Below, piece by piece: positions 1 through 61,354 of a DNA stretch of 64,000 nucleotides (within the stretch, counting starts at the first letter, position 1; each line of letters starts with the position of its first letter). Location of the stretch: assembly GCA_964556685.1 (NCBI GenBank), contig CAZKWX010000002.1, forward strand, positions 10,541 to 74,540. The letters are read 5' to 3'. The notes under the pieces were generated by a model. The model was not told the DNA's origin, made no database searches, and worked only from the letters and a program-made list of their open reading frames with translations. This DNA comes from an uncultured Bdellovibrionales bacterium. GTDB taxonomy: Bacteria > Patescibacteriota > Minisyncoccia > Moranbacterales > DUUL01. The position numbers and the translations under genes were made by a program.

Positions 1-170
1 TAGTAGTAAAAGCGAATAAGAAACCTAAATTTTCAACTCGAAAAATAAATCGGTGTTGGAAATGTGGAAGAAAGCGTGGTTACATGCGAGAGTTTGATTT
101 GTGCCGAATTTGTTTTCGAGAACTGGCGACGAAAGGAAAAATCCCTGGAGTGCGTCGGTCAAGTTGGTAG
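1..170 (+). CDS. rpsZ: ribosomal protein S14 type Z, 5'-truncated by window edge
   Basis: Frame 3 reads ...[54 protein letters not shown]. The CxxC...CxxC zinc ribbon and the C-terminal ...SSW are typical of S14 type Z. Stop TAG at 168-170. Confidence 0.75.
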
Positions 171-175
171 TTTAG

Positions 176-276
176 TAGAATTATGAATTAAGAATTATGA
201 ATTAAGAATGGGAATGCGGAATACAGAATCTGGAAATAAATTCCAAATTCAAAATTCCAAATTCGCAATTCAGTAA
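176..276. repeat. AT-rich imperfect palindromic intercistronic repeat, copy A (S14-L6 spacer)
   Basis: A 31-bp block gaattaagaattatgaattaagaatgggaat is identical to the block at 847-877. It is followed by aattccaaattc-type repeats that are roughly the reverse complement of the first half. Confidence 0.7.
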
Positions 277-280
277 AAAT

Positions 281-826
281 ATGTCTCGTATTGGAAAACA
301 ACCTATTGAAATCCCAGACGGAGTGACGGTCAAGCTAGACGGTCAGGATTTGGAAGTGAAAGGACCAAAGGGAAGTTTGAAAATGGAAGTGAGCTTTGAA
401 GTGGAAGTGAAAGTGGGTGAAAAAGAAATCGAAGTGAGCAAAGTCGGCAAGACCAAAAATGCGCCGGCCCTTTGGGGAACCACTCGAGCGCTGATTCAAA
501 ATATGATTGTTGGTGTGACTGATGGTTTTGAAAAAGAACTTGAATTGCACGGAGTGGGCTACAAAATGGCAGTGCAAGGAAAAAAGTTGGCACTCAATTT
601 AGGATTTTCTCATCCAATTGATTTGGACATTCCTGAAGGGCTGGAAGTCAAAATTGAGAAAGAAAAGTTGACTGCTTCTGGAATTGACAAGCAGGCGGTG
701 GGAGAGTTCGCTGCCAAGATCAGAGTTTTGCGACCAGTGGAACCATATAAAGGAAAAGGATTTCGATATGTAGGTGAATATTTTGTTAAGAAAGAAGGAA
801 AACGGGCGGTTGGAGAAGAAGCGTAA
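281..826 (+). CDS. rplF: 50S ribosomal protein L6
   Basis: MSRIGKQPIEIPDGVTVKLDGQDLEVKGPKGSL... is a typical L6 N-terminus. The gene sits in a spc-operon context. Confidence 0.95.
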   Translation: MSRIGKQPIEIPDGVTVKLDGQDLEVKGPKGSLKMEVSFEVEVKVGEKEIEVSKVGKTKNAPALWGTTRALIQNMIVGVTDGFEKELELHGVGYKMAVQGKKLALNLGFSHPIDLDIPEGLEVKIEKEKLTASGIDKQAVGEFAAKIRVLRPVEPYKGKGFRYVGEYFVKKEGKRAVGEEA

Positions 827-829
827 TCA

Positions 830-931
830 AGAGGAATTAGGAATTAAGAATTATGAATTAAGAATGGGAATCTGGAAGAATGAATGAGGAATCTAATTCC
901 AACTTCAAAACTCCAAATTCCAAATTCAATA
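830..931. repeat. AT-rich imperfect palindromic intercistronic repeat, copy B (L6-L18 spacer)
   Basis: Shares the 31-bp block and the aattccaaattc motifs with 176-276. Confidence 0.7.
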
Positions 932-934: not shown

Positions 935-1285
935 ATGACGAAAGAGAGTAGAAACAAATTGAGACTGCATCGCAAAAGGCGAGTACGGGCAAAAGTCAGA
1001 GGAACGGCAAAAAAGCCGCGGCTTTGTGTTTTCAAAAGCTCACGATCAGTTTATGCTCAAGTGATTGATGATGAAAAAGGGAAAACGATAGTTGCGGCAG
1101 ATTCGAGAAAAGTTAAAGATGTCAAAGATGGTGTTGATGCAGCGAAGAAAACTGGTGAATTGGTTGCCAAAGAAGCGAGAAAGAAGAAGATCAAAAACAT
1201 GGTTTTTGATCGAGGAGGATATAAGTATCATGGAAAAGTGAAGGCTTTGGCAGAAGGAGCCAGAGAAGGAGGACTCGAATTCTAA
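935..1285 (+). CDS. rplR: 50S ribosomal protein L18
   Basis: MTKESRNKLRLHRKRRVRAKVRGTAKKPRLCVFKSSRSVYAQVIDDEKGKTIVAADS... is an L18 signature. The ATG at 935 is chosen over the ORF-track start at 884, which lies inside the repeat spacer. Confidence 0.9.
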   Translation: MTKESRNKLRLHRKRRVRAKVRGTAKKPRLCVFKSSRSVYAQVIDDEKGKTIVAADSRKVKDVKDGVDAAKKTGELVAKEARKKKIKNMVFDRGGYKYHGKVKALAEGAREGGLEF

Positions 1286-1336
1286 TTATCAATTATCAAT
1301 TTCCAATTATCAATTTGGAATAATGCACACAATACA

Positions 1337-1942: not shown

Positions 1943-2039
1943 GTCGAAATTATATTATTATTGAAATTAATTTATCTCTACGAAATACGGATGTTTTACG
2001 AATATACGAATAGTTAAAAATTCTAAACCCTAATATCTA

Positions 2040-2160
2040 AATCCTAGACAAATCCAAATTTTCTAAACTCTAAATCTAAAATATTTTGAATTTTGAGCAT
2101 TGAGATTTTGAGATTATTTAGAAATTAGGGATTAGAATTTAGGATTTCTATTAATACATT
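2040..2160. repeat. long imperfect palindrome in the S5-L15 spacer, where rpmD/L30 would normally sit
   Basis: ctaaaccctaatatctaaatcctagacaaatcc ... ggatttctattaat/ttagggattagaatttaggatttc arms are approximate reverse complements around a centre near 2095. Confidence 0.6.
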
Positions 2161-2613: not shown

Positions 2614-2707
2614 CGCGACAGTATCAGGTATTGTGTATCATGTATTAGGTATAAATTTCCGAATACCTAATGCTGGATACTTGATACATAATACGTATTC
2701 GTACTCT

Positions 2708-3212: not shown

Positions 3213-3283
3213 AAATGTAATGTTCATTTAAAATTTAGCAAGTGAGATTTGGGAATCTTTGAAAATGGGAAAGGAGTACAAAA

Positions 3284-3574: not shown

Positions 3575-3613
3575 GCCAATAGAGGAATTACAGGTTATAG
3601 AGAGGTGTTAGTT

Positions 3614-3916: not shown

Positions 3917-4124
3917 TTTGGGGGATGAAAGGAAATAAAATTTCTAGTCCTCCCCAAATCTCACTGGCTAAATTAAATGTCATTCTTGTGTCGCATCGAG
4001 TGCGGCATAAACTACAGCGGGGATCCATTGGGCTGAGGCATCAAGCTAATAGATTCCCGCCTGCGCGGGAATGACAAACAGGGAAATACAAAATATAAAA
4101 TACTAGCTACTAGCTACTAATCTC

Positions 4125-5396: not shown

Positions 5397-5551
5397 CCCA
5401 ATTAGTAATTACTAATTATGAATTACTAATTAAATAAGCGAGCGTTGTCCGCCTTCGCTCCGATTGCTCGGAGCTGCGAAGGACAGGTGCCGTGGTTATT
5501 ACCTCAGTCCCGCGGAGCGGGATTTCGTTACGCTCAACCTTCAAAACATAC

Positions 5552-5847: not shown

Positions 5848-5984
5848 AAGTTATCAATGGTCAGTGATCAATGATCAATTATTTTTCAATGACCAGTGAT
5901 CAATTGACTGCTGATTCAAACTGGAAAACTTTTTATGGAGAATCATTTCTGGGAGATGGGCTTAAATCTTATTTAACAGGGTAA

Positions 5985-6502: not shown

Positions 6503-6596
6503 GACGAAAGTAACGCTATTTTTTACGCATAAGTTTGCCTCTGGATAGATTTTTGAAGGTGCAAACTTGGCGAAAAAATAGCATTGCTCCTGTCTC
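6503..6596 (+). promoter_or_regulatory. conserved structured leader element, copy 1 (upstream of rpoB)
   Basis: The core attttttacgcataagtttgcctctggatagatttttgaaggtgcaaacttggcgaaaaaata is near-identical to 10125-10189. It contains the hairpin acgcataagtttgc ... gcaaacttggcg. Confidence 0.65.
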
Positions 6597-6643
6597 GCTT
6601 GCAACGACCGATAAAAAAGCAACGTCTAAAACATACAATTTTC

Positions 6644-10112: not shown

Positions 10113-10203
10113 GACAAAGGCAGTATTATTTTCACGCATAAGTTTGCTTCGGGATTGAGTCTTGAAGGTGCAAACTTGGCGAGAAAATAACACCGCCTTT
10201 GTC
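10113..10203 (+). promoter_or_regulatory. conserved structured leader element, copy 2 (upstream of rpoC)
   Basis: Same core as copy 1. In addition it is enclosed by the outer inverted repeat gacaaaggc (10113) / gcctttgtc (10195). Confidence 0.65.
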
Positions 10204-10244
10204 TCCAAGAATGTATTTTATACAAAATACCTAACACTAACCCT

Positions 10245-13200: not shown

Positions 13201-13841
13201 AAGAAAATACTAAGCAGAAGATTATCAAAATTTCCAAGCCGCCTCAAGGTCGATCAAAGAAAATTGACATCAAGGAATATACAATTCCAGCTGTGATGAA
13301 TGTTAAAGTTAACAAAGGAGATTTGATTTCTCAAGGAGATGTGCTCTCTGAAGGACATATCGATTTGAAAAAGCTGTTCAAGATTAGTGGTCGGGAAGCT
13401 GTGCAGCGATATATCATTCGTGAAGTTCAAGAAATTTATCAAACTCAGGGAGAGGGGATTGATGATAAACACATTGAAATCATCATTCGACAAATGATTT
13501 CTCGGGTGACCATTTCAGAGCCAGGCGACACGGAGTTCCTTAACGGTGACATTGTAGAATATGAAAAATTCATGGAAGTTAATGAAGAGACCAAGAAAAC
13601 TAATAAGCAAGAAGCAGTGGGTGAACGGATGGTTTTGGGAATTTCAAAAGTGGCTCTTTCGACTGACAGTTTCCTTTCTGCCGCTTCTTTTCAAGAAACC
13701 GCTCGAGTTTTGATTGATGCTTCAACTCAAGGCAAAGTGGATCACCTAAGAGGGTTGAAAGAAAATGTGATTATTGGAAAGCTGATCCCGGCTGGAACTG
13801 GCTATGCAAGATCAACTGTTTTGGAGTCAAAAAAAGAATAG
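10245..13841 (+). CDS. rpoC: DNA-directed RNA polymerase subunit beta'
   Basis: Zinc-binding CxxC...CxxC near the N-terminus (CEKIFGP...CYCGKY...CDKCGVEVT) and the NADFDGDQMAVHVPL catalytic motif. Confidence 0.95.
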   Translation: MQQEGITKISDFNAVQLKVASPDTILDWSNGEILRPETINYRTQRFEKDGLFCEKIFGPAKDWECYCGKYKRIRYKGIVCDKCGVEVTKSIVRRERMGHIGLAVPVSHIWFLRGVPSRIGLTLDMSIQELEKVIYFAGYIIISVDEEARKESLKSLEKEKKVALKEAESTAEKERIKKTFQESKDGLRGLAEKQTLSEVDYHKVSMKFGHVFEASIGAEAIEKLLKEVDLKKEIRKIKDKMEKGKGADKKRLAKRLKLMSGFVKSGINPSWLMLRVVPVIPPDLRPMVQLNGGRFATSDLNDLYRRIINRNNRLKKLIELGAPEVIQRNEKRMLQEAVDALIDNNARRSQAQVAASTGQRRALKSVSDMLKGKQGRFRQNLLGKRVDYSGRSVIVVGPELKLHQCGIPKKMALELFKPFIINKLIEGEHAHNVRTAGRMVDAEKEEAYEMLDDIIDHHYVLLNRAPTLHRLSIQAFQPVLIEGKAIRIHPLVCSAFNADFDGDQMAVHVPLTRKARLESAELMLSSRNLLKPASGDPITVPSQDIVLGVYYMTKAIDGLKGEGKAFGNIDEIIGAYQMELIDLRAKIRLYRNSKEVETTAGRALLNDILPEKMRYINEEMTKGSLKKLVAEFLQTGGTEKAAIFVDKLKALGFKYITRSGISLGMDDFEEPKDKHKIFEEADKQVEEIHNQYDAGLLTDEERKTRVIEIWNETKNKVTEEVKRAINPGGPIHAMIHSKARGSEAVVVQMSGMKGLVAGPTGETIELPIKGSLKGGYNVLEYFSSTHGARKGMADTALRTATAGYLTRRLVDVSQDVVIREEDCKDKEGAYIYRQDSEQIGQSFTDRIEGRVVVEDVMLPHGKKPLVGKGEMISIEQAAMIEEKEVEKIKIRNLVTCKTKRGICQKCYGKDLGRNDTVALGQAVGIVAAQAIGEPGTQLTMRTFHIGGVAGTDITQGLPRVDEIFEARSPKGEAVVAEFDGKVEEVEENTKQKIIKISKPPQGRSKKIDIKEYTIPAVMNVKVNKGDLISQGDVLSEGHIDLKKLFKISGREAVQRYIIREVQEIYQTQGEGIDDKHIEIIIRQMISRVTISEPGDTEFLNGDIVEYEKFMEVNEETKKTNKQEAVGERMVLGISKVALSTDSFLSAASFQETARVLIDASTQGKVDHLRGLKENVIIGKLIPAGTGYARSTVLESKKE

Positions 13842-13857: not shown

Positions 13858-13953
13858 AAAAATCCCGCATCGGCGGGGTTTTTTGTTGTAGTCAACCACC
13901 CCTGCGATCCCGCTTGGCGGGATCTTTCCCCTCCTTTCCAAGGAGGGGATTAA
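13858..13953. terminator. bidirectional terminator cluster between convergent rpoC and rpsT
   Basis: aaaaaatcccgcatcggcggggttttttg is a hairpin plus T-run for the + strand. Further hairpins are gatcccgcttggcgggatc and cccctcctttccaaggagggg. Confidence 0.6.
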
Positions 13954-14238: not shown

Positions 14239-14605
14239 TTCTCTACTAATTATGAATTTCGTACGAATATACGAATGTACGAATATCGCATAAAATATAG
14301 AATAAGTTATAGAATCTATTTAAAACTATCAATCAATCTAGCATGGACTAGCGAATTTGTAAAGCGCATAGCGCTGGTATTACGTATAAAGTATTAGGTA
14401 TTATGTATACAATGAATTAGCGAGATTTAATATTTTCCTTTATACTTAATGTGTGTTTGGACTGATGAAATAATCATTTTTTTGCTGAATTTCGAAACCT
14501 TATTATTCTTCAAGCTGGTTTCTCAATTGTTGCTCAAAAATAATTATTCCATCAGCGTTGAGTTTTTATACTTAATACATGATACGTTATACATAATACA
14601 TAGCA

Positions 14606-15175: not shown

Positions 15176-15231
15176 AATAGTATCTAGTATCCTGTATTAT
15201 GTATGAATTCGTCTAAGGGCGATTTTTTTGT

Positions 15232-16370: not shown

Positions 16371-17483
16371 ATGAATGATCTGGAGAAATTTTTAGCAGAA
16401 AATACAGTTGATGGAGGTTTTTTGCAATCGGAACACTGGGCCAAGTTTAAAAAAGAAACGGGTGCAGGGGTTTTTGAGTTTGGAGATAATAAAAGTTTCC
16501 GAGCGCTGGTGATTGAGCACAAGCTTCCATTAGTGGGGAAGTATTGGTTTGTGCCACGCGGCCCCATAGTCTCGGCTAAAGCCGAGAAAATCCGAAATTC
16601 GAAATTCGAAGCTCCAAATAAATCCGAAATTTTAAATTCCAAATTGGAAAAAGAATTACATAATGTATTAAGTAAAGTATTATATAAGGCAAAAGAGAAT
16701 AAGATTGGGTGGATTAGAGTTGAAACGCAGAGGGGAAAGGATCTAAGAAAAATAAAAAATACAATCGAGAAGGTTAAAACTGAAAATCCCCCTCAGTCCC
16801 CCTTTTCCAAAGGGGGAGGAAAAATAGTGAAGGCGAAGAAGAATCATCAGCCGGCGCAAGTGATTATAATGGACTTAGCTGGAAGCGAGGAAGAAATTTT
16901 GAAAGACATGAAGTCGAAGACTCGCTATAACATCAGACTGAGCCAGAAAAAGGGCGTGGAAGTTTTTGAGACTAGAAAAAAAGAAGACATTGAAGTTTTC
17001 TGCGATTTGTTGGAAGAAACGGCCAAACGAGAAAAGATCACCAATCATCCCCGAAGACACTACCATGACTTGTTAAATAAAATAGACAAAAATTTTACAA
17101 AATTATACATAGCAAAATATGAAGAAAAAATTCTCTCTGGCGCAATAGTCAGTTATTATGGAAACGTAGCCGCCTATCTTCACGGAGCATCAAGTGATGA
17201 GCATCGGAACGTTATGTCGCCGTTTGATTTGCATTGGAAGATTATTCAAGATTCTAAGGCCAGAGGTTTTGAAAAATACGATCTCGGCGGAGTAAAACTA
17301 ATAGAAAAAGAAGACAAGTGGACACCAAAGGAAGGATCCTGGCAAGGCATCAGCCGGTTTAAGCTGGGATTTTGTCCCAAGTGCCAGCCAGTCGAATTTC
17401 CAGGCTGTTGGGATGTTATTTTGAATCTAGCTAAATATAGGCTGTATAAAATTCTGCAAGCGATCAAAGATTTGAGAAAGTAA
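16371..17483 (+). CDS. FemAB-family peptidoglycan interpeptide-bridge aminoacyltransferase (FemX/MurM-like) with a low-complexity insertion
   Basis: ...KTRYNIRLSQKKGVEVFET... and ...YYGNVAAYLHGASSDEHRNVMSPFDLHWKIIQDSKARGFEKYDLGG... are FemAB family motifs. Residues about 70-160 are a low-complexity insertion. Confidence 0.75.
   Translation: MNDLEKFLAENTVDGGFLQSEHWAKFKKETGAGVFEFGDNKSFRALVIEHKLPLVGKYWFVPRGPIVSAKAEKIRNSKFEAPNKSEILNSKLEKELHNVLSKVLYKAKENKIGWIRVETQRGKDLRKIKNTIEKVKTENPPQSPFSKGGGKIVKAKKNHQPAQVIIMDLAGSEEEILKDMKSKTRYNIRLSQKKGVEVFETRKKEDIEVFCDLLEETAKREKITNHPRRHYHDLLNKIDKNFTKLYIAKYEEKILSGAIVSYYGNVAAYLHGASSDEHRNVMSPFDLHWKIIQDSKARGFEKYDLGGVKLIEKEDKWTPKEGSWQGISRFKLGFCPKCQPVEFPGCWDVILNLAKYRLYKILQAIKDLRK
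16588..16650. repeat. in-frame simple repeat (gaaattc / aaattcc units) inside the FemAB CDS
   Basis: tccgaaattcgaaattcgaagctccaaataaatccgaaattttaaattccaaattgg encodes IRNSKFEAPNKSEILNSKLE. Confidence 0.8.
16786..16812. repeat. poly-C/poly-G hairpin palindrome inside the FemAB CDS
   Basis: ccccctcagtcccccttttccaaagggggagg forms ccccc-ttt/aaa-ggggg and encodes PPQSPFSKGGG in frame. Confidence 0.7.
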
Positions 17484-17637
17484 GATATCTTCCAACTGTT
17501 ATTTCGACCAAAGTGAATCCAAAGAATAAGCGTAGTGGAGAAATCTCATGAATGTCGACAAGATCCCTCCACTTCGCTGTGCTTCGGTCGGGATGACAGA
17601 AAGAAGCAGGATGATATTTAAGAGTAAGGTAAAAAAT

Positions 17638-19074
17638 ATGAAAGATCTGATCCCGCAAAAATTGAAGAATGTTTATCATCTTTTCCGCTCAATGCTAGCA
17701 GTGGTTTGGTTTCGGTTTCCGGCTAGGAAGATCAAGGTAATTGGAGTGACGGGAACTAATGGAAAAACTACAGTGGTGCAGATGGCGGCCGGAATTTTGG
17801 AGGAAGCTGGTTACAAGGTAGCTGTTTCTTCAACTATTAATTTCAAGATCGGGAAGGAAGAATGGGTGAATAGAACAAAATTCACTACACTTTCCGGTTG
17901 GCACACTCAAAGGTTCATTCGAAAAGCGGTTAATGCCGGATGTGATTATTTGGTTTTGGAAGTGGCTTCGCATGCATTGGACCAAAACAGGTTGTGGGGA
18001 ATAGACTTCGATGTAGCGGTGATCACTAATGTGACTCGGGAACATTTAGACTATCACAAGACGATGGAAGAGTATCGAGAGGCGAAGAAAAAAATATTTA
18101 AGATGCTGAAACCAAAAGGCGTGGCGGTGGTTAATTTGGATATGAGTAAACCGGAAGAATTTATTGAGGTAAGTGAAGGGGCTAAAGTCTATGGGTACAG
18201 CCTGAAGAAAGCGATAGGTAAAAAAATAACAAGCAACAAATTACAAGTTCCAAATAAATTACAAATGATAAAAGCTGAAAATATTAAATTAAATTTAAAT
18301 GAAACCGGTTTTCGGGTTGATGATATTGATTTTAATTTGAATCTTTCTGGTGACTTCAATATCGAGAACGCATTGGCGGCGGTTTGTGTTGGGCTATCGC
18401 AAGGAATAAATTTGGAAACTGCTAGTGCGGCGCTGAGCAAAATAGAAAAGATTCCCGGTCGAATGGATTATGTGGAAAATGATCGAGGGTTGAAGATAAT
18501 TATTGATTATGCACTGACACCGGACTCGATGGAGAAGCTAGGAAAGTTGATTTCCGATTTGCTATTGTCAATTTCCAATTTAAATAGAGGCAAAAGTAAA
18601 AGTTTATACAATCGTAAATCGCAGATAATAAATCGTAAATTGATCTGGGTTTTTGGAGCTTGTGGAGAAAGAGACAGAGGGAAGAGGCCGATTATGGGAG
18701 AAATTGTTTCAAGATATGCTGACTATGTGATTGTTACAAATGAAGATCCCTATGGAGAAGAGCCAGAGAGGATTATCAATGAAGTGTTTTCCGGTGTAGT
18801 TAATAAAAAAGTAAGTGGCAGTTTACCCAATTATCAATTATCAATGATCAATGATCAATCAGCAGATGAAAATAAATCGAAAGTGATGGTGGAAGGAAAA
18901 AATGCTTTTAGGATAATGGATCGGGAAGAGGCAATAAAAAAAGCGCTCGAATTGGCGCAAGAGGGTGATATCATTTTGATAACTGGCAAAGGAGCAGAGG
19001 AAATTATGGCAGTGGGCAAAAAAAGAATCAGATGGAACGACCGAAGAGTGGTAGAAGAATTATTGAAGGTCTAG
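17638..19074 (+). CDS. murE: Mur ligase, probably UDP-MurNAc-tripeptide ligase (MurE-type), with three low-complexity insertions
   Basis: IKVIGVTGTNGKTTV is the P-loop. ...LVLEVASHALDQNRL... and ...DYALTPDSMEKL... fit the Mur ligase family. The ATG at 17638 is preferred over 17548. The choice of MurE over other Mur ligases is tentative. Confidence 0.8.
   Translation: MKDLIPQKLKNVYHLFRSMLAVVWFRFPARKIKVIGVTGTNGKTTVVQMAAGILEEAGYKVAVSSTINFKIGKEEWVNRTKFTTLSGWHTQRFIRKAVNAGCDYLVLEVASHALDQNRLWGIDFDVAVITNVTREHLDYHKTMEEYREAKKKIFKMLKPKGVAVVNLDMSKPEEFIEVSEGAKVYGYSLKKAIGKKITSNKLQVPNKLQMIKAENIKLNLNETGFRVDDIDFNLNLSGDFNIENALAAVCVGLSQGINLETASAALSKIEKIPGRMDYVENDRGLKIIIDYALTPDSMEKLGKLISDLLLSISNLNRGKSKSLYNRKSQIINRKLIWVFGACGERDRGKRPIMGEIVSRYADYVIVTNEDPYGEEPERIINEVFSGVVNKKVSGSLPNYQLSMINDQSADENKSKVMVEGKNAFRIMDREEAIKKALELAQEGDIILITGKGAEEIMAVGKKRIRWNDRRVVEELLKV
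18233..18268. repeat. in-frame simple repeat in the Mur ligase; shares the 17-mer caaattacaagttccaaa with lepA 38493-38509
   Basis: caacaaattacaagttccaaataaattacaaatg encodes SNKLQVPNKLQM. The same 17-mer occurs inside lepA. Confidence 0.8.
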
Positions 19075-19741: not shown

Positions 19742-20162
19742 TTTTTGTTTTATCCTACTTCGTCTCGAAAATTCGGGACTACGAAGGACAGGCTAATCAA
19801 TCTAGTATTCTACAGCTTGCTGTGGAATGAGAAACTAGGGCCTGTTAAGGATTAACGCCTACTTACTTATGGTCTAATTATAAAACAAAATTAGGCATTC
19901 ATCAACTTGAATTATCTAAAATTGCGTGATAGCATAAGTTACTGTAAGAGCTTTAAGTAAAAGAATAAATAATTAAATAAAATAAATTCAAATGAAAGTT
20001 CCAATCGGGAATAGTCCGCAAGGATCACCAGCAAGAAGTCCACAGGGCCAACCAAAAGGAAGTGGAATTTCAAGTTTTAGAAAACCTGTGCAAGAAGCGG
20101 GAACCGGTGCTGCGCCCACTCCAATGGCACCTCCAAAAAAGAGAAAAGAAAACACCAGAGCG

Positions 20163-22903: not shown

Positions 22904-24046
22904 CTATAGCAAATTTCGTAATATTTTCTCTCTTCTCTTCTTTTCTTCCCAAGAAATCGGATCACCCAGTTTTTCGGCCGCTGTCTCTGGTCGGGGAGAG
23001 TATTTATTAATATAAGCGTCAGCGAATTTGACTTTCTTGAAAACCTTCACAGTTTCTTGGAATTCTTTTTCGGTTTCAGTAGGGAAGCCGACGATGACAT
23101 CGGTGGTAATTTTTACGTTAGGGATTCGAGTGCGGATTTTTTTAATTAAACTCAGATAATGTTTTTGAGTATATGGACGATTCATGTTTTTAAGAACTTT
23201 ATTAGAACCTGATTGAATGGGTAGATGAATTTTGTTGGGAGTGTTGTCATGCTTAATAATGACTTCAATTAGTTCATCAGAAAAATCTTTGGGATGGGAG
23301 GTGAGGAAATGGAATTTGATAGACGGGAAAGCTGTGGCAAGGTGGTCTAGTAAAATGGGGAAGGTGATAGTCTTTTGAGAATTTTGAATTTTGAATTTTG
23401 AATTTTGACTTTCAATTCCCAATTCCAAATTCCCAATTCTAAATTCATAACTATTCACATTTTGCCCCAAAAGCAGAACTACTTTACAGCCATTTTTCAC
23501 AGCTTTTTCTAGCTCATGAAATACTTCATGAGGAGGACGGGATTTTTCTCGGCCACGGACATAGGGAACCACGCAATAGGAACAGAAATTGTTGCAGCCG
23601 ATCATTATGGGAACTAATACTTTTCTCTTGCTTTTGTATTTGGGCATTATTTTCAGATAGTCACAATTATTACCTTTCAACTTTTTTGTATTATGTATTG
23701 AGTATTTTGTATTATGTATGGTTTTAAAATTCAGATTAAATAATTTATTTATTGATATGAATAGGTCTGCTTTATTTTTTAATTTTCTCTGCACATCTTT
23801 GCGATGGGCGACGCAGCCGGTGACGATGATGAATGTATCCTGATTCTTTTTTCGAAGATTGTGAATCTGACCATAGACTCGATCTTCGGCTGTTTGACGC
23901 ACTCCGCAAGTGTTAAAAATTACCAAATCAGATTGATTGATGTTTTTTGTAAGTTTTAGATTATTATTCTCTATGAAAGCAGCCACTCGCTCACTATCCG
24001 AAAAATTCATCTGACAGCCAAAAGTTTTTATGTAATATGTTTTCAT
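22904..24046 (-). CDS. MiaB/RimO-family radical SAM methylthiotransferase with low-complexity insertions
   Basis: The MTTase N-terminus is MKTYYIKTFGCQMNFSDSE...NTCGVR. The radical SAM motif is IGCNNFCSYCVVPY. There are two insertions, at 23378-23452 and 23683-23722. Confidence 0.85.
   Translation of the reverse strand: MKTYYIKTFGCQMNFSDSERVAAFIENNNLKLTKNINQSDLVIFNTCGVRQTAEDRVYGQIHNLRKKNQDTFIIVTGCVAHRKDVQRKLKNKADLFISINKLFNLNFKTIHNTKYSIHNTKKLKGNNCDYLKIMPKYKSKRKVLVPIMIGCNNFCSYCVVPYVRGREKSRPPHEVFHELEKAVKNGCKVVLLLGQNVNSYEFRIGNLELGIESQNSKFKIQNSQKTITFPILLDHLATAFPSIKFHFLTSHPKDFSDELIEVIIKHDNTPNKIHLPIQSGSNKVLKNMNRPYTQKHYLSLIKKIRTRIPNVKITTDVIVGFPTETEKEFQETVKVFKKVKFADAYINKYSPRPETAAEKLGDPISWEEKKRREKILRNLL
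23378..23452. repeat. in-frame simple repeat (aattttg / aattccc units) in the MiaB-like CDS
   Basis: gaattttgaattttgaattttgactttcaattcccaattccaaattcccaattctaaattc encodes ...LGIESQNSKFKIQNSQ... on the minus strand. Confidence 0.8.
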
Positions 24047-27652: not shown

Positions 27653-28174
27653 ACTAGATGCAGGAATAGATTCTGAGACGAGGCTTCTTTTGAACGTTAG
27701 TACGGACGTTATAACGTACGTACTAACGAAGCTCGCGGTTCCACTCAGGTTTTTCGCCCCTCCCTTTACAAAGGGAGGTTGGGAGGGTTTTTCATTAAAA
27801 GTATAGACCGAAAACTCCCTCATTCCCCCTTTAAAAAGGGGGAGGCAAAACACTCTCTGATTGTTTTTGGCTTAGTCCCTTGTTTTTGACTGTAGCGACG
27901 TATATAAGCGTCGCCTACATTGCGTGTACACATTGTGCGCGCATATATCGAGTACATTTGCAAGCTAGGGAAGTGAACGTGGCAGTGCCACGTTCCTACG
28001 TATTTGGTAGACACATCAATCACCAAGAGAACTAAAGTTTATTATATTAGTTTGTAGAAAAATGTCAAATCCTATTAAGTCTGAATGACAAAGCTCAAAT
28101 GCCAAATCAAATCCAAAATCCAAATAGAAATTACTTAATTTAGCATTGATTTGTTATTTTTGATTTAAAATTTG

Positions 28175-37132: not shown

Positions 37133-37432
37133 TTTTGTTTTTATCGGTTATTTATATAATTATAAATAAATTTTAAAAAGTACGCAAGGAATATTTTTTT
37201 ATAACGAAATGTGTTGAATACTTGAATTATATGGGATATGACCTAAACTAAATAAATGGGATGATTGGGGATTATAAGCTATGAATTAAGATTTAAGAAT
37301 AAGTTTTTAAGAATGGAGAATATACGTAACTTTTGCCCCGTAAAATTTCGCTTAAGCGAAATCACGGGGTAAATATTATTGCTCACTCTGAAAAATCGCT
37401 TCGCTCATTCGGGGCAGGCATTGATCACTACT

Positions 37433-39811
37433 ATGAATAATATTAGAAACTTTTGTATTATTGCACATATTGATCATGGGAAGTCGACACTAGCCGATCG
37501 GCTTTTGGAGTTAACTGGGACGATGGAAAAACGGCAGATGAAGGAACAGGTTTTGGATACGATGGACTTGGAACAGGAGAGAGGCATCACTATCAAGCTC
37601 CAGCCTGTTACTATGACCTATCGGCCATCGCAGATCAATGCAGATGTAACGCGGATAAGTGCGGATAAAGAAAAAAGCAAAGTGGAGGGTGGCTTATTAT
37701 ATAAGGAGTTAACTTACAAAGTAAGAGGACTATTCTTTGACGTTTATAATAATCTGGGACCAGGGCACAAGGAAAGTGTTTACGGCAATGCTCTCGAAGA
37801 GGAATTTTTGAAAGCTAATCTTAGTTTTGATAAAGAAAAGATAATAGACATTTTATATGGGGACAAAAAGGTTGGCACCTATCGTCCAGACTTTGTTGTT
37901 AATGAAAAGATAATTATTGAATTGAAGGCTTTGCCTTTCATTGGCAAAGCAGAAAAAAAACAGACCTGGCATTATTTGAAGGGGTCTCAATATAGACTGG
38001 CACTTCTGGTCAATTTCGGCAAAACAGAATTACAAGTTGAAAGAATAATCTATGATGAAGCTCGTGATAAAAAAATCATCCGCAAAAATCAGCGTTCAAA
38101 TCTGCAAAAATACGCATATCAGCTCAATTTGATAGATACTCCAGGACATGTTGATTTTAGTTATGAAGTTTCACGATCACTAGCAGCAGTGGAAGGGGCG
38201 ATTCTTTTGGTTGATGCGACGCAGGGTGTGCAAGCTCAAACATTGGCTAATTTGTATCAGGCGATAGATCAGGGACTGACAATTATTTCAGTGGTGAACA
38301 AAATTGATCTTCCCAATGCAAATGTGGAAAAGACCAAGAAGGAAATAGTTAATATTCTGGATTACAAAGAAGAAGATGTCATCTGCGCATCTGGAAAAAC
38401 GGGTGAGGGAGCAGAGGAAATTTTGCAGGCGATTGTAGAAAGGATCCCATGCCCGCAATCGCCTTTGGCGAATGCGGGAATTTCCAAGTTACAAATTACA
38501 AGTTCCAAACAAAAACCAAATTCGAAGTCTGAAATTCAGAATTCTGAAAAAATGCCACTTCGTGCTTTGATTTTCGACAGTAAATATGATTCATACAAAG
38601 GCGTTTTAGCATATGTGCGAATTGTTGACGGGCAAGTGCAAGCAGAAGATGACATTTATTTGATGGCCGGCCAAAAAGATGCTCATGTAATCGAAGTGGG
38701 GAAGTTTTCACCAGAGCTGATAAAAAAAGACAAATTAAAAGCTGGTGATATTGGCTATATCGCCACTGGGCTCAAGTCAGTGGAACAGTGTAAAGTTGGA
38801 GACACCGTGACAATGATCAATGATCAATATTCAATATCCAATGAAAAAATAAAAGATAATAAGATCAAGCCGCTTCCGGGTTACAAGGAGGTTCGGCCGA
38901 TGGTCTATGCCAGTTTCTATCCCACTGAGGGAGAAGACTATAATCAATTTCGTGATGCGCTGAACAAATTGAAGCTCAATGATGCAGCGTTGGCTTTTGA
39001 AGGAGAAAGTTCGGTGGCTTTGGGAAGAGGATTTCGCATTGGATTTTTGGGACTGCTTCATTTAGAAATTATCAGGGAACGGCTATCGCGAGAGTTTGGT
39101 TTCGAGCCAGTGATCACAACTCCATCAGTGGTTTATGAAATAGAAAAATCAGATAAATCAACCGAGAAAATATTCTCCGCAGTGGAAATGCCGGATGCCA
39201 ATCACATCAAAAAAATCAAAGAGCCTTTTGTCAAATTGGACATCATCACTCCATCAGAATATATGGGCAAAGTGATGGAGCTGATTCAGGATACCACGCG
39301 GGCAAAATACATTGCCACGGAATACATCGACGATGATCGAGTCATGCTTTCCTATGATGCACCGCTCAGCGAAGTGATCATCAATCTTCACGATGGCATC
39401 AAATCGGCTTCTAGCGGGTTCGCTTCCTTTTCATATGAGTCGACTAAATATCGAGCTTCAGATCTAGTGCGGATGGATGTCTATGTGGCGGAAGAAAAAG
39501 TGGAAGCTTTTTCTCAGATTGTGCCCAAAGAAAATGTTACCAAGGAGGGAGCTCGAGTGGTCAGGAAACTCAAAGACGTGATTCCGCGGCAAAACTTTTT
39601 GGTCAAACTTCAAGCAGCGGTGGGTGGCAAGTTTGTGGCTCGGGAAAATATTTCGGCCTATCGAAAAGATGTGACGGCCAAACTCTATGGCGGCGATGTC
39701 ACTCGCAAGCGCAAGCTGTTGAAAAAACAAAAGAAAGGGAAGAAAAGGATGAAGGGGGCAGGAAAAGTGGATATTCCCCAAAAAGCATTTTTGGAGGTGC
39801 TGAAGAGATAG
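37433..39811 (+). CDS. lepA: elongation factor 4 (LepA) carrying a nested GxxExxY PD-(D/E)xK domain and a low-complexity insertion
   Basis: G1 is [11 protein letters not shown]3 is [10 protein letters not shown]. The C-terminus [23 protein letters not shown] is typical of LepA. The length is 792 aa versus about 600 for typical LepA. Confidence 0.93.
37622..38113 (+). other. in-frame GxxExxY-family (PD-(D/E)xK nuclease fold) domain nested between the G2 and G3 motifs of LepA
   Basis: [45 protein letters not shown]...[19 protein letters not shown]...[18 protein letters not shown]. It contains GxxExxY, PD and ExK motifs in the family-typical order. Confidence 0.8.
38481..38545. repeat. in-frame simple repeat (acaaattacaag / aaattc units) in lepA
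   Basis: tttccaagttacaaattacaagttccaaacaaaaaccaaattcgaagtctgaaattcagaattctg encodes [23 protein letters not shown]. Confidence 0.8.
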
Positions 39812-40577
39812 CGCGCTAGTATCAGGTATTTTGTATTAAGTATTGTGTATGACGTATATACGTCCGTATATACGTTGGTATGTACTACGAAATGGCTCCT
39901 CATGGCGCTGTTTTTATTTTGAAAAACAAAAACCTAGACCTCACTACCATATAACCTTATATGGTAAAATTGGTTTTTTGGACTAAAAAAGGGAGATCCA
40001 ACGTTTCTGATAGTTAGATTCTCCCATTATTGGCCGTCCACTGTCGGTCAAGAACAAAAATTCAAGCTATGAATGAAAAGGGCGGGTCTTAAAGCTTATA
40101 TACTGGCAGGGACAACCCTTTCTGTTCATAAGCGAGGTTCCCGTAGGCGAGCCCCACCTCCGAAATTGCTGAAAGCAGATTTCCCTTACTCGATTTTTTG
40201 TAAAATCACGACAGTTTCTGGGAAGATAGTCGCCTAGGAGTATTATCACATTATTACTCCCTTACTTGTAAGCTCAGGACGTTGACTTTCAGTGATATAG
40301 TCCTTTCCCACAGATCGGTCGATCTATCTTCGTTGGTGCTGATCTTCCATGGACGTAATAGGTAATCGATTTTACACATGTTCCTACTACTGAAGCAATA
40401 ATTTAACAGCCTGGACATACTGTTAAAATGCCTCTATTACCAGCACCGAAAGCTTATATTCAATTAAGTACTACCTGTATTTAAGCACTTTTAGGATGTC
40501 TTGTCAATGTTTATGAAAATTGGCCTAAAAACTGCAAGTTTGGCTATTTTTTGCTATAATTACATCGAATAGACTTA

Positions 40578-51690: not shown

Positions 51691-53190
51691 TTGAAAATCG
51701 CCATATCATATCCACCATTGAAATCTGAAAAAGGAACAGCCTGCTTGAGTCAGAATCGACAGTTTCAATGGTTTAACACACCCACTTACATCTATCCGGT
51801 TATTCCGGCTTATGCTGCGTCGCTTTTGAGGGATAAAGGTCATGAGGTGTTGTGGGACGATGCAATCACTCAGAAACTTTCATATGAGCAGTGGCTAGAG
51901 CGGATAAAAAAAGAACAACCAGACATCATTGCTATTGAAACAAAAACTCCAGTTGTCGAAGAGCACTGGAAAATTATAGACGATTTAAAAAATTCGAAAT
52001 TCGAAATTCGAAATTCGAAATTCATCTTAATGGGCGATCATGTGACGGCTCTCTCAAAAGAATCTATGGAGAAATCGAAAGTAGATTTTGTGTTAGCGAG
52101 TGGAGATTATGATTTTATGCTGCTAAATCTGGTTAATTATTTAGAAGGTAGGGCTGAGTTGGAAGGTGGTTGGTGGCTGAAAGATAAAGCGGGGAATATT
52201 ATCAACTCAGGACTATCTGATTTATCTCGACACAACCTCGATGCTCTTCCTTTGATTGACCGGGAATTAACTCGGTGGAAAGATTATGCTTTTGACAATG
52301 GCAATTTCAAATATACACCCGGAGCCTATTTGATGAGCGGACGGGATTGTTGGTGGGGAAGATGCACCTTTTGTTCTTGGACAACTTTCTTCCCGGGCAA
52401 TCAATTTCGCACCATGAGTGCCAGCAAAGCGCTCGAGGAAGTGGATAATCTCATTCGACTGGGTGTCAAGGAAATCATGGAAGACTCAGGGAGTTTGCCG
52501 ATTGGAAAGTGGCTAGATGAATTTTGCAGAGGAATGATTGATCGAGGTTATAATAAAAAGGTGACTATCAGCTGTAACATGAGAATCAATGGCATCAGGA
52601 AGAAAGAAACCTGGGAGCTAATGAAGGAAGCCGGTTTTCGGTTTATTCTTTTTGGTCTGGAGTCGGCTAACCAAAAAACTTTAGACAAAATAGACAAAAA
52701 TCTTAAAGTCGAAGAAATTAAACCAAACTTGAGAATCTGCAAGGAGGCAGGACTGGAACCTCACATCACAGCCATGGTGGGTTATCCATGGGAAACTAAA
52801 GAAGATGCCCAAAGAACAATTGATTTGGCTAAAGGTTTATTCAAGAAGGGATACGTTGACACTTTGCAGGCGACGATCCTTATCCCCTATCCCGGAACAC
52901 CGCTTCATGCTTATTGTAAAGATAATAATTTGCTACGTTTCAATGACTATGCTCGTTTTGATCAAAGGGAACAGGTGATGAAATCTCCCTTGACCACCAC
53001 TGATGTTCAAAAAATGGCTCAAGGTTTATACGCATCGTTTGCCAGCCCTCAGTTTATTTGGCGAAAAATTTCTTCCATTCGGAATTTCGATGATGTAAAA
53101 TTTATTTGGATGGCTGGGTGGAAATGGCTGGGGAAGATGATAGATTTTTCGAGTAAAAAAAAGGTACCTTCCCCGCCAAAGGCGGACTAA
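51691..53190 (+). CDS. B12-binding domain / radical SAM protein (class B-like); TTG start
   Basis: N-terminal B12-binding-like domain (...PDIIAIETKT...ILMGDHVTA...). The Cys cluster is CWWGRCTFC. A simple-repeat insertion lies at 51988-52027. Confidence 0.7.
   Translation: MKIAISYPPLKSEKGTACLSQNRQFQWFNTPTYIYPVIPAYAASLLRDKGHEVLWDDAITQKLSYEQWLERIKKEQPDIIAIETKTPVVEEHWKIIDDLKNSKFEIRNSKFILMGDHVTALSKESMEKSKVDFVLASGDYDFMLLNLVNYLEGRAELEGGWWLKDKAGNIINSGLSDLSRHNLDALPLIDRELTRWKDYAFDNGNFKYTPGAYLMSGRDCWWGRCTFCSWTTFFPGNQFRTMSASKALEEVDNLIRLGVKEIMEDSGSLPIGKWLDEFCRGMIDRGYNKKVTISCNMRINGIRKKETWELMKEAGFRFILFGLESANQKTLDKIDKNLKVEEIKPNLRICKEAGLEPHITAMVGYPWETKEDAQRTIDLAKGLFKKGYVDTLQATILIPYPGTPLHAYCKDNNLLRFNDYARFDQREQVMKSPLTTTDVQKMAQGLYASFASPQFIWRKISSIRNFDDVKFIWMAGWKWLGKMIDFSSKKKVPSPPKAD
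51988..52027. repeat. in-frame tandem heptamer (gaaattc x4.5) in the rSAM CDS
   Basis: aaaaattcgaaattcgaaattcgaaattcgaaattcatc encodes KNSKFEIRNSKFI. Confidence 0.85.
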
Positions 53191-56286: not shown

Positions 56287-56318
56287 TCCATAACAGAAGT
56301 TACGCAGTCTATGTTTGA

Positions 56319-61318: not shown

Positions 61319-61354
61319 TAGATACGGATTGGATAATTTCTAAACGTTACAAAA

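What the first reader, a model, noticed from the sequence alone, without database searches (positions are those of the whole stretch)
16588..16650. Pervasive AT-rich simple-repeat family inserted in-frame into essential genes
Short units (gaaattc, aaattcc, aattttg, acaaattacaag) that also make up the intergenic spacers of this region appear as in-frame insertions inside several essential or core genes. The spacers concerned are at 176-276, 830-931, 1286-1320 and 23378-23452. The genes affected are the FemAB-family enzyme here, the Mur ligase (18233-18268, 18585-18650, 18824-18860), the MiaB-like enzyme (23378-23452, 23683-23722), lepA (38481-38545) and the radical SAM enzyme (51988-52027).

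The insertions encode N/S/K/F/E/I/Q-rich peptides such as NSKFEIRNSKF. An identical 17-mer, caaattacaagttccaaa, is present inside both the Mur ligase and lepA. That argues for propagation of a sequence element rather than independent slippage.

Heptamer repeats (7 is not a multiple of 3) are nonetheless maintained in frame, which implies selection on reading frame after insertion.
Basis: seen in the sequence. Interest (0 to 1): 0.55.

Follow-up and report, generated by a model that had tools for sequence, protein, structure and literature searches.

The report
Seven-base repeat arrays inside conserved genes
This Patescibacteria genome and its relatives carry many short arrays of AT-rich 7-base repeats, about 33 bases long, between genes and in frame inside conserved proteins at a few tolerant surface loops; they appear to arise and turn over locally, not by spread of one mobile element.

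Summary
The window holds 22 period-7 arrays against about 2 expected by chance. None occur at periods 5, 6, 8, 9 or 10. Independent assemblies reproduce them.

In FemX, MurE, MiaB, LepA and a B12-radical-SAM enzyme the arrays are in-frame blocks. Orthologs or solved homologs lack them or carry them in another form.

- In 84 related Patescibacteria loci I found 133 such arrays with more than 40 different 4-base cores.
- They recur at the same few loops of FemX, LepA and the radical-SAM enzyme.
- Relatives differ by whole units.
- Orthologous arrays keep their length but change unit in concert.

This fits local slippage and homogenisation filtered by selection. The filter favours stop-free, frame-preserving, hydrophilic peptides in loops. 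Some copying also occurs: two 109-base spacer hairpins, a shared 19-mer, and GTAT arrays with a shared flank.

Three things remain unexplained:
- a sharp length ceiling near 35 bases in coding and non-coding DNA;
- a conserved 4-base core next to 3 variable bases;
- a perfect array that is 36/36 identical between genomes whose surrounding gene is 68% identical.

Verdict: a new variant of a known kind (heptanucleotide simple repeats; Rickettsia-like in-frame inserts).

The parts
167..275 (+). Spacer element 1 upstream of the L6 gene. It consists of (GAATnnn) x9 followed by (ATTCnnn) x5. The arrays proper are at 176-210 and 238-271. It folds as a long imperfect hairpin.
   Evidence: RNA fold -23.1 kcal/mol, z = -3.75, 0 of 200 shuffles as good. 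It is 81% identical to 823-931 (D5).
823..931 (+). Spacer element 2 upstream of the L18 gene, a copy of element 1. Arrays at 829-866 (GAATTAN x5) and 895-927 (AATTCCA-type).
   Evidence: Its fold is not better than shuffles (z = -0.23).
1284..1318 (+). (AATTATC)-type array of 5-6 units. It overlaps the L18 stop codon and ends 19 nt before the S5 start.
2083..2142 (+). Degenerate period-7 arrays (ATTTTGA / TTAGnnn) upstream of the L15 gene.
2621..2655 (+). (GTATnnn) x5, starting 8 nt after the L15 stop. It shares the flank TAACGCGACA with the array at 39819.
   Evidence: D3, D4.
4084..4119 (+). Short period-7 arrays (AAATACA, TACTAGC) ending 6 nt before the SecY ORF start.
5400..5434 (+). (AATTAnT) x5, starting 4 nt after the SecY stop.
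5849..5882 (+). (ATCAATG / CAATGAT)-type intergenic array.
14377..14411 (+). (GTATnnn) x5, the left arm in the S20-RuvA spacer.
   Evidence: It pairs with 14568-14602 in the minimum-free-energy fold.
14568..14602 (+). (ATACnnn) x5, the right arm, ending 4 nt before the ruvA ATG. Relatives carry GTAT/ATAC (L124) or TAGT/ACTA (L126) arms at the same place.
15180..15207 (+). (GTATnnn) x4, starting 5 nt after the RuvA stop.
   Evidence: D3.
16587..16651 (+). The finding itself. Two tandem ~32-nt modules of AAATTCN-type heptamers, in frame in FemX (aa 73-94), preceded by the small hairpin TCTCGGCTAAAGCCGAGA (16570-16587).
   Evidence: (D2). AlphaFold2 pLDDT is 56-67 for residues 71-90 against a mean of 92.
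18223..18260 (+). (nnnACAA)-type array in the MurE-like ligase, encoding ITSNKLQVPNKLQ. It contains the 19-mer shared with lepA.
   Evidence: (D2).
18585..18650 (+). Degenerate (AATCGnA) array inside an 18-aa MurE block that syntenic orthologs lack.
   Evidence: (66% matches).
18828..18862 (+). (CAATnAT) x5 in MurE, encoding PNYQLSMINDQS, inside a ~23-aa block absent from L126 and L124.
23373..23446 (-). Hairpin-type pair (GAATTTT) x4-5 plus (AATTCCN) x5, in frame in the MiaB-like enzyme. It adds 17 aa relative to 7mjv. It is shared in diverged form with the ortholog in L126.
   Evidence: (z = -3.1 and -2.7).
23688..23722 (-). (GTATnnn) x5 on the + strand, read as ATAC on the coding strand, in the MiaB linker (IHNTKYSIHNTK). 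The L126 ortholog has a CAAT/ATTG array at the same position.
28149..28173 (.). (ATTTnnn) x4-5, 2 nt beyond the stop of the 1225-aa ORF on the minus strand (28175-31852). That ORF was not scanned here; it is taken to be DnaE from the synteny with L126.
   Evidence: gene identity by inference.
37283..37314 (+). Period-14 (GAATTAAGTATTTAA) array upstream of lepA.
38478..38554 (+). ACAA-type and AAATTC-type arrays forming most of a 29-aa block at the junction of the LepA G domain and domain II (aa 362-390).
   Evidence: (D2).
38811..38845 (+). (CAATnnn) x5, corresponding to an 11-aa (33-nt) block in LepA domain II ([11 protein letters not shown]).
39819..39860 (+). (GTATnnn) x6, starting 8 nt after the lepA stop. 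Its flank TAGCGCGCTA resembles that of the array at 2621. The palindrome GACGTATATACGTC follows.
   Evidence: D4.
51989..52026 (+). Perfect (AAATTCG) x4.9 in the B12-binding radical SAM enzyme, encoding NSKFEIRNSKF.
   Evidence: (100% matches). It is 36/36 nt identical in L209 and 34/36 in L208, although the rest of the gene is 68% identical.

Best explanation
The feature is one instance of a lineage-wide class of short heptanucleotide arrays in Patescibacteria (Moranbacteria-like) genomes. The arrays are AT-rich and usually have 3-5 units, with lengths of 7n+4 up to about 33-35 nt.

Inferred mechanism. The arrays are made and kept homogeneous locally. The likely processes are slipped-strand mispairing, or unequal exchange between out-of-register units, during replication or repair. 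Whole ~32-nt modules are occasionally duplicated in tandem, in inverted orientation (which gives hairpins), or at a second site.

Shown by the data. Selection then filters what persists:
- Between genes almost any unit survives, and the arrays fill spacers right up to stop and start codons.
- Inside genes only stop-free versions that keep the reading frame survive.
- These mostly have the A-rich strand as the coding strand, so they encode hydrophilic K/N/S/I/Q-rich peptides.
- They sit only at a few permissive loops and linkers of otherwise conserved proteins.

The FemX block at 16587-16651 is such a loop insert, made of two modules. I infer that it has no enzymatic role. The paired intergenic arrays may in addition act as mRNA hairpins. 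That last step is conjecture.
For: Period 7 is specific and widespread. 84 FemX-bearing Patescibacteria loci (782 kb) hold 133 core arrays at period 7, against 0-22 at periods 5-12. 47 of the 84 loci have at least one.

Units are diverse. There are more than 40 cores, so no single element consensus exists. The repertoire is nevertheless AT-rich: 74% A+T against 60% for the sequences overall. Units from different genomes are alike 4 times more often than random 7-mers, as expected if AT-rich heptamers are slippage-prone.

The same permissive loops are used again and again with unrelated units:
- 45 arrays in three FemX loops.
- Two LepA loops.
- One radical-SAM loop.

Whole-unit differences between relatives at one site:
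- 14 nt (2 units) in L157 against L144.
- About 5 against 2 copies of AAATAC[C/T] in L131 against L134.

Concerted change at orthologous sites with length kept:
- (AATTCAA) x5 against (ATACnAA) x5-6 in L131 against L134.
- AAAATTC against AAAATTT, and ATAC against ATTG, in MiaB of the window against L126.
- AAATTCG against AAATTCA versions in radical-SAM orthologs; the AAATTCA version is inferred from the peptide only.

Selection filter:
- Density is 6.7 per 10 kb in non-coding DNA and 1.7 in coding DNA.
- 85% of intragenic arrays are A-rich on the coding strand, and K, N, S, I and Q make up 60% of residues.
- Intergenic arrays are mostly stop-laden.
- The FemX insert is the only low-confidence stretch of an otherwise confident model.

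The arrays are stable within the population, so they are not switching loci.

Precedent. Heptanucleotides are the most abundant long simple repeats in many prokaryotes, and polymerase slippage was proposed for them (Mrazek 2007, as summarised in PMC4679880).
Against: 1. Length ceiling. Arrays of 29-35 nt are common, but arrays of 36-42 nt are about 8-10 times rarer. This holds in coding DNA (62 against 8) and non-coding DNA (31 against 3). Loci from other phyla show tails of up to 49 units. Simple slippage does not predict this.

2. Core and spacer. Within imperfect arrays the mismatches fall in 3 contiguous columns and leave a 4-nt core intact (p about 1.5e-4).

3. Ultraconservation. The radical-SAM array is 36/36 nt identical between genomes whose gene is otherwise 68% identical. 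12 of 12 codons are identical against 43% elsewhere (p about 4e-5). The rare codons TCG and CGA are retained.

4. Frameshifted intermediates. In an indispensable gene, growth one unit at a time would pass through frameshifted states. Intragenic arrays therefore need multi-unit or whole-module events. No such event was observed directly.

5. Real evidence of copying between sites:
- the 109-nt spacer pair;
- the shared 19-mer;
- GTAT arrays with a shared flank;
- modules duplicated whole;
- modest excess unit sharing within a genome (p = 0.017).

6. No unit-number polymorphism was seen among the three assemblies available.
Confidence: 0.55

Rival explanations
1. A small non-autonomous mobile element, like a MITE, a REP or a Rickettsia palindromic element, is built of heptamer repeats. 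It spreads by copy and paste, and copies that land in frame in tolerant loops survive.
For: - Two 109-nt spacer elements are 81% identical and have a hairpin architecture.
- The MiaB insert has the same two-arm design.
- An identical 19-mer lies in MurE and LepA.
- The GTAT arrays at 2611 and 39809 share a 10-nt non-repeat flank (D4).
- About 15% of arrays have a partner arm with the reverse-complement core within 300 nt, against 5% for a control.
- Whole ~32-nt modules are duplicated with their internal variants.
- Units are shared slightly more within a genome.
- Other small GC-rich palindromes clearly do sit in frame in the same loops of FemX, LepA and the radical SAM enzyme.
Against: - More than 40 unrelated cores exist and there is no family consensus.
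- Most intragenic arrays are solo, with a partner arm for only 6 of 98.
- Unit-number differences and concerted unit changes occur in place.
- No terminal inverted repeats, target-site duplications or transposase were seen.
- Hairpin folds of the FemX, LepA and radical-SAM arrays are no better than shuffles.
Confidence: 0.2
2. The arrays are functional periodic nucleic-acid elements. Examples would be leader or trailer RNA hairpins that tune translation or mRNA stability in a genome without Shine-Dalgarno sites, or binding platforms for a multimeric RNA- or DNA-binding protein. On this view the periodicity and length are under selection and the intragenic copies are tolerated spill-over.
For: - A conserved 4-nt core with 3 variable columns.
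- A sharp length ceiling in coding and non-coding DNA.
- Arms in the ruvA leader covary in three genomes: GTAT:ATAC, GTAT:ATAC and TAGT:ACTA. They end 4-10 nt before the start codon.
- Arrays abut stop and start codons in at least 10 window spacers.
- Most genes lack a Shine-Dalgarno motif, as in the Beggiatoaceae case, where a translational role was proposed (PMC4679880).
- DNA-level ultraconservation of the radical-SAM array.
Against: - Core diversity rules out one sequence-specific binder.
- No Rfam family matches.
- Only 2 of the 8 tested regions fold better than shuffles.
- Orthologous spacers in some relatives lack arrays altogether (L127; 37 of 84 loci).
- Nothing here measures expression.
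Confidence: 0.15
3. Chance low-complexity sequence in an AT-rich genome, or an assembly artefact.
For: The genome is 36-45% G+C, and short-read assemblies can mis-build repeats.
Against: - Excess of 12-fold to several hundred-fold over shuffles, confined to period 7.
- Identical sequence in independent assemblies.
- The ORFs stay intact.
- The same class is present in dozens of related contigs from other samples.
Confidence: 0.01

Closest known systems
Long simple sequence repeats with heptanucleotide units in prokaryotes (Mrazek et al. 2007, as summarised in PMC4679880)
   Same: - Tandem head-to-tail 7-nt units, far longer than chance.
- Heptamers are the dominant unit size.
- Patchy phylogenetic distribution.
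- Slippage proposed as the origin.
- My scan for (GAATTNN) x4 hit Cyanobacteria, Bacteroidota, Ignavibacteria, Acidobacteria and Saccharibacteria.
   Different: - That survey found that mainly units divisible by three occur in coding regions. Here about two thirds of the arrays are inside ORFs of conserved genes.
- Lengths here are capped near 35 nt, whereas other phyla show long tails.
- Many different units occur per genome.
TAACTGA direct repeats of marine Beggiatoaceae, some Cyanobacteria and Bacteroidetes (MacGregor 2015, PMC4679880)
   Same: - 2-6 copies of a heptamer.
- Mostly intergenic, within a few nt of start codons.
- Found inside ribosomal-protein operons.
[quoted passage not shown]
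- Occasional copies inside ORFs at protein peripheries.
   Different: - One fixed unit there, where related heptamers are rarely repeated. Dozens of units here.
- The forward TAACTGA unit has stops in all frames.
- ORF copies there are few and lie at protein ends. Here they are internal loop inserts in housekeeping enzymes.
STRR (short tandemly repeated repetitive) heptamers of heterocystous cyanobacteria (own knowledge; their use for fingerprinting is seen in PMC5088731)
   Same: Tandem heptanucleotide arrays dispersed over the genome, several unit families per genome.
   Different: STRR units are defined G+C-rich consensus sequences, the arrays are mainly intergenic, and they are often longer. 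No STRR consensus occurs here.
Rickettsia palindromic elements (RPE; summarised in PMC10969869)
   Same: - Short repeated DNA is found in frame inside unrelated housekeeping genes.
- The encoded peptide is compatible with the protein fold.
- Some window elements are palindromic: the two spacer elements, the MiaB insert and the GC-rich mini-hairpins in FemX and the 1225-aa ORF taken to be DnaE.
   Different: - RPEs are about 100-150 bp families with a conserved consensus and a conserved peptide.
- The heptamer arrays are about 33 nt, have no shared consensus, are mostly not palindromic, and vary in place by unit number.
Tandem repeats of Borg elements that create disordered protein regions (PMC9879509)
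   Same: - Pervasive, fast-evolving tandem repeats, about half of them in ORFs.
- They arise independently and add low-complexity peptide segments.
   Different: - Borg repeats in ORFs all have unit lengths divisible by three.
- Here the unit is 7 nt, so each unit is read in all three frames and the peptide period is 7 aa per 21 nt.
Phase-variable contingency loci (simple repeats in ORFs of host-adapted pathogens)
   Same: A repeat whose unit length is not a multiple of three lies inside a reading frame.
   Different: - No copy-number variation among assemblies of the same population.
- The genes are housekeeping genes, for which on/off switching would be harmful.
- The arrays are short.

Membership tests
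Heptanucleotide long simple sequence repeats (LSSR) | Head-to-tail tandem copies of a 5-11 nt unit, longer than expected for the genome's composition | tested here: met
   22 period-7 arrays against 1.8 expected. 42 against 0.05 core/array hits, at period 7 only.
Heptanucleotide long simple sequence repeats (LSSR) | Copy number changes by whole units between related genomes (slippage signature) | tested here: met
   14-nt (2-unit) indel in L157 against L144. About 5 against 2 copies in L131 against L134. No variation among three near-identical assemblies.
Heptanucleotide long simple sequence repeats (LSSR) | Length distribution with an open tail, as produced by stepwise slippage | tested here: not met
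   Sharp drop beyond about 35 nt in coding and non-coding DNA. A tail is present in other phyla.
TAACTGA repeats (Beggiatoaceae type) | The unit is TAACTGA | tested here: not met
   The units here are GAATTnn, AAATTCn, GTATnnn, CAATnnn, ACAAnnn and others.
TAACTGA repeats (Beggiatoaceae type) | 2-6 copies lying a few nt upstream of start codons, including inside ribosomal-protein operons, with no Shine-Dalgarno site | tested here: met
   Arrays end 4-19 nt before the L6, L18, S5, SecY and RuvA starts. There is no Shine-Dalgarno motif there.
Cyanobacterial STRR | Defined STRR consensus heptamers | not tested
   No search with STRR consensus sequences was run. The units seen are AT-rich and differ from the G+C-rich STRR units that I recall.
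Rickettsia palindromic elements / MITEs | Dispersed copies that share a family consensus over the whole element (about 100-150 bp) | tested here: inconclusive
   Met only for the spacer pair 167-275 / 823-931 (81%). Not met for the arrays in general, which have more than 40 cores.
Rickettsia palindromic elements / MITEs | Palindromic or terminal-inverted-repeat structure | tested here: inconclusive
   A significant hairpin for spacer 1 and the MiaB insert only. A partner arm exists for 23 of 152 arrays.
Rickettsia palindromic elements / MITEs | In-frame insertion into unrelated conserved genes at structurally tolerant positions | tested here: met
Rickettsia palindromic elements / MITEs | Target-site duplication and a cognate transposase | not tested
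   No systematic search was made. None was noticed at the array borders or among the window ORFs scanned. The rest of the genome was not available.
REP/RAYT system | About 35-nt imperfect palindromes with a conserved 5' tetranucleotide, and a RAYT (Y1 transposase) gene | not testable with these tools
   The whole genome is not available. No IS200/RAYT-like domain was found in the ORFs scanned. The arrays are direct repeats, not palindromes.
Phase-variable contingency locus | Repeat-number variation within a population that switches the reading frame | tested here: not met
   No indels among three assemblies. The 90% protein clusters of FemX and LepA have single members.

The most novel reading that the evidence does not exclude
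The arrays may not be ordinary slippage products. They could be the output of a dedicated, sequence-independent process that writes, and repeatedly rewrites, quantised periodic modules of about 5 x 7, roughly 33 nt, into DNA. One candidate is reiterative templated synthesis by a polymerase or reverse transcriptase.

Alternatively they could be maintained as a periodic structural signal on DNA or RNA.

Either reading would account for four observations:
- the hard length ceiling in both coding and non-coding DNA;
- the 4+3 core and spacer pattern;
- whole-module duplication;
- perfect arrays that stay identical while the surrounding gene diverges to 68% identity.
Probability: 0.12. Interest if true: 0.8.

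Novelty: new variant of a known kind. Interest (0 to 1): 0.55.

Why it matters
Patescibacteria have small genomes, yet their conserved proteins are often longer than the norm, with lineage-specific inserts.

This analysis points to one concrete source of that extra sequence. A repeat process whose unit length is not a multiple of three seeds about 11-residue hydrophilic segments at a few permissive loops of enzymes such as FemX, MurE, MiaB and LepA. Older inserts then evolve as ordinary protein sequence.

Practical consequences:
- These segments inflate alignments, can break short-read assemblies, and can mislead homology models.
- They mark which loops tolerate insertion.

The length ceiling, the concerted evolution and the ultraconserved perfect arrays give testable handles on replication and recombination fidelity in organisms that cannot yet be grown alone.

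If the paired arrays in leaders act as RNA hairpins, they would be a simple, evolvable control element in genomes that largely lack Shine-Dalgarno sites.

Tried and rejected
- Rfam scan of the whole window: only tRNA-Gly.
- Hairpin hypothesis for all arrays: rejected. The FemX, LepA, radical-SAM and spacer-2 folds are no better than shuffles, and only 6 of 98 intragenic arrays have a partner arm.
- One sequence-specific periodic binder, in the manner of HutP or TRAP: rejected because more than 40 different cores are used.
- 'Five units because ORFs only allow steps of three units': rejected as a general explanation. Non-coding arrays show the same ceiling, and TRF shows peaks at 18, 25-27 and 31-33 nt instead of a single mode.
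- My first strict lag-7 detector (mismatch penalty -3) missed most arrays because of the variable 3-nt spacer. An X-drop estimate of array span was unreliable for the same reason.
It showed only that such arrays occur in many phyla and gave no close relatives.
- No close relative exists for dating the FemX insert. The nearest non-self homolog is 54% identical.
- DNA for P0247 could not be fetched, so the AAATTCA version of the radical-SAM array is inferred from the peptide only.
- Literature searches linking Patescibacteria with simple sequence repeats or heptamer arrays found nothing relevant in the held library.
Full report
**What is there**

The window comes from a Patescibacteria (candidate phyla radiation) genome, probably Moranbacteria-like. 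Homologs of its FemX, LepA and radical SAM proteins carry those names.

The stretch 16587-16651 lies in frame in a FemAB-family ORF, 16371-17483. It consists of AAATTCN-type heptamers arranged as two tandem ~32-nt modules.

It is one of many such stretches:
- TRF finds 22 period-7 and 5 period-14 arrays, against 1.8 and 0.8 in shuffles.
- A 4-nt core repeated at least four times at exactly 7-nt spacing occurs 42 times (counted per core and array) against 0.05 expected.
- It never occurs at periods 5, 6, 8, 9 or 10.

**Anatomy**

In register, almost every array is four to six units of a 4-nt core plus three more variable bases. The cores are GAAT/AATT/ATTC, GTAT/ATAC, CAAT and ACAA. In arrays found by TRF, independently of the core search, mismatches fall in three contiguous columns (p about 1.5e-4).

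Intergenic arrays abut ORF ends. They start 2-8 nt after the stops of L15, SecY, RuvA, LepA and the 1225-aa ORF taken to be DnaE. They end 4-19 nt before the starts of L6, L18, S5, SecY and RuvA.

Some arrays are paired with a reverse-complement arm:
- The spacers upstream of L6 and L18 are two copies (81% identical) of a 109-nt element, (GAATnnn) x9 plus (ATTCnnn) x5. The first copy folds far better than shuffles (z = -3.75).
- The ruvA leader has (GTATnnn) x5, then 156 nt, then (nnnATAC) x5.

**The intragenic copies are in-frame extra segments**

- *FemX.* The block after the conserved PRGP motif is absent from the closest homolog. It is the only low-confidence part of an otherwise confident AlphaFold2 model: pLDDT 56-67 against a mean of 92.
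- *MurE.* Blocks of 18 and about 23 aa are missing from two syntenic orthologs.
- *MiaB.* It has 17 extra residues relative to 7mjv. A second array replaces a linker without a change in length.
- *LepA.* Relative to 2ywe it has a 29-aa block at the junction of the G domain and domain II, and an 11-aa (33-nt) block in domain II.
- *Radical SAM enzyme.* It has NSKFEIRNSKF where most of 120 homologs have ELPxSK.

The shared string is 19 nt long: ACAAATTACAAGTTCCAAA, at 18236 and 38491.

The sequence is not an assembly artefact. Three independent assemblies are 99.96-100% identical over 11 kb, with no indels.

**The phenomenon is lineage-wide**

I fetched 84 loci around FemX homologs from metagenomes and from contigs of named homologs.
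- They hold 133 period-7 core arrays, against 0-22 at any other period.
- More than 40 different cores are used.
- About two thirds of the arrays are inside long ORFs. Per base, however, non-coding DNA is four times richer.
- Intragenic arrays are A-rich on the coding strand in 85% of cases and encode K/N/S/I/Q-rich peptides.
- Intergenic arrays mostly contain stop codons on both strands.

The arrays recur at the same few places:
- Three FemX loops hold 45 arrays in about 30 orthologs, with unrelated units.
- Two LepA loops and one radical-SAM loop behave the same way.
- GC-rich mini-palindromes are inserted in frame at those same loops in other lineages.

**Local origin and turnover**

Relatives differ by whole units at one site:
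- L157 against L144: a 14-nt indel within an AATTTTC array.
- L131 against L134: about five against two copies of AAATAC[C/T].

Orthologous arrays keep their length while the unit changes in all copies:
- (AATTCAA) x5 against (ATACnAA) x5-6, between flanks 80-90% identical.
- AAAATTC against AAAATTT, and ATAC against ATTG, in MiaB of the window against L126.

In the ruvA leader the two arms change together: GTAT/ATAC in the window and L124, TAGT/ACTA in L126.

These facts fit generation and homogenisation in place better than the spread of one element. Still, some copying between sites is evident:
- the spacer pair;
- the 19-mer;
- GTAT arrays sharing a non-repeat flank after two stop codons;
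- modules duplicated whole;
- a modest excess of unit sharing within a genome (p = 0.017).

Units come from a restricted AT-rich repertoire shared between genomes.

**What does not fit simple slippage**

- *Length ceiling.* Array lengths peak at about 18, 25-27 and 31-33 nt (7n+4). They fall about eight- to ten-fold beyond 35 nt, in coding and non-coding DNA alike. Loci from other phyla show tails of up to 49 units.
- *Ultraconservation.* The perfect (AAATTCG) x4.9 array of the radical SAM gene is 36/36 nt identical in L209 and 34/36 in L208. The rest of the gene is 68% identical. 12 of 12 codons are identical against 43% elsewhere (p about 4e-5).
- *Frameshifted intermediates.* Growth one unit at a time inside an indispensable gene would pass through frameshifts, so multi-unit or whole-module events are required.

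One possible cause of the ceiling is inference only. Recombinational deletion might set in once the out-of-register homology reaches the minimal length for RecA.

**Comparison with what is known**

The nearest relatives are:
- heptanucleotide long simple repeats and the TAACTGA repeats of Beggiatoaceae, which have 2-6 copies, sit just upstream of start codons, occur in ribosomal-protein operons and lack Shine-Dalgarno sites nearby (PMC4679880);
- cyanobacterial STRR;
- for the in-frame aspect, Rickettsia palindromic elements (PMC10969869) and Borg tandem repeats (PMC9879509).

The differences here are:
- many units instead of one;
- a 7-nt unit inside conserved ORFs, whereas surveys found mostly units divisible by three in coding regions;
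- internal loop positions;
- a hard length cap.

I found no paper in the held library describing this in Patescibacteria.

**Verdict**

The best explanation is locally generated and homogenised heptamer arrays, filtered by selection, with occasional module copying (confidence about 0.55). Rivals are a mobile palindromic element (0.2) and functional periodic RNA or DNA elements (0.15).

This is a new variant of a known kind, of moderate interest.

Noticed in passing
window 37631-38113 (LepA ORF 37379-39811, aa 85-245): An in-frame insertion of about 161 aa carrying a PD-(D/E)XK_3 / GxxExxY nuclease-like domain (PF13366). It sits inside the LepA GTPase domain, between residues 68 and 72 of the 2ywe structure. 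Dozens of Patescibacteria LepA homologs of 740-900 aa have the same fusion, and some are annotated only as 'GxxExxY protein'.
   Followed up: partly
window 13927-13949, 16797-16817, 27759-27778, 27824-27843, 28471-28493: A family of GC-rich mini-hairpins, TCCCC(C)TTT..AAAGGGG(G)A. Three copies are intergenic. Two lie in frame inside FemX (peptide NPPQSPFSKGGG, a second FemX insert) and inside the 1225-aa ORF 28175-31852 (-), taken to be DnaE from synteny only. Related 'NPSPxKGEG' peptides sit in the radical-SAM loop of relatives.
   Followed up: partly
window 17560-17598; also 5447-5485, 19752-19790, 32269-32307: Further short dispersed palindromic repeats. All three independent Logan assemblies end exactly at 17589-17590, inside the repeat gatccctccacttcgctgtgcttcggtcgggatgaca. 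The annotated MurE ATG at 17548 lies just upstream of this repeat, so the ORF runs through it. The real start is probably 17638.
   Followed up: partly
window 56318-56397 and 61240-61319: Two copies (93% identical) of an 80-nt element with 28-nt inverted arms. It is another small repeat family, unrelated to the heptamers.
   Followed up: no
window 6520-6596 and 10129-10205: A 77-nt sequence repeated at 83% identity just upstream of the two large ORFs 6584-10069 and 10245-13841. These match the rpoB and rpoC genes called in the near-identical locus L001. It may be a shared leader or promoter element.
   Followed up: no
window 1975-2012 and 14240-14286: Period-8 TACGAATA arrays with a shared flank (TCTCTAC...), one after the S5 gene and one next to the S20 gene start. 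This is the only recurrent non-heptamer tandem unit in the window.
   Followed up: no
window 2727-4080: About 1.4 kb between the L15 and SecY genes holds three ORFs without any Pfam match and several internal direct and inverted repeats. It looks like foreign or repeat-derived DNA inside the ribosomal-protein operon.
   Followed up: no
whole window (gene starts): Most genes lack a Shine-Dalgarno motif. Their upstream regions are A-rich (for example aaaacaaaaaATG). Low Shine-Dalgarno usage is, to my knowledge, also typical of Cyanobacteria and Bacteroidota, phyla where heptamer arrays are common.
   Followed up: partly
L134, L157, L168, L146 (FemX loops); LepA homologs P0123, P0125, P0160, P0172: In other lineages the same protein loops that carry heptamer arrays carry GC-rich palindromic inserts of 45-100 nt in frame. 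An example is GTCATTCTGAGCGAGCGAAGCGAGTCGAAGAATC-type elements, which give peptides such as PAGRQ and SPSLKRGG. Several repeat classes therefore converge on the same hot spots.
   Followed up: partly
radical-SAM homologs P0258, P0272, P0279, P0289 and others: Many orthologs have a longer loop, ESLKIENWKLKIV. It back-translates to an (AAAATTG)n-like array in which a TGA would be TGG (Trp). This suggests an old heptamer array that has been kept as ordinary protein sequence. It is inferred from peptides only.
   Followed up: no
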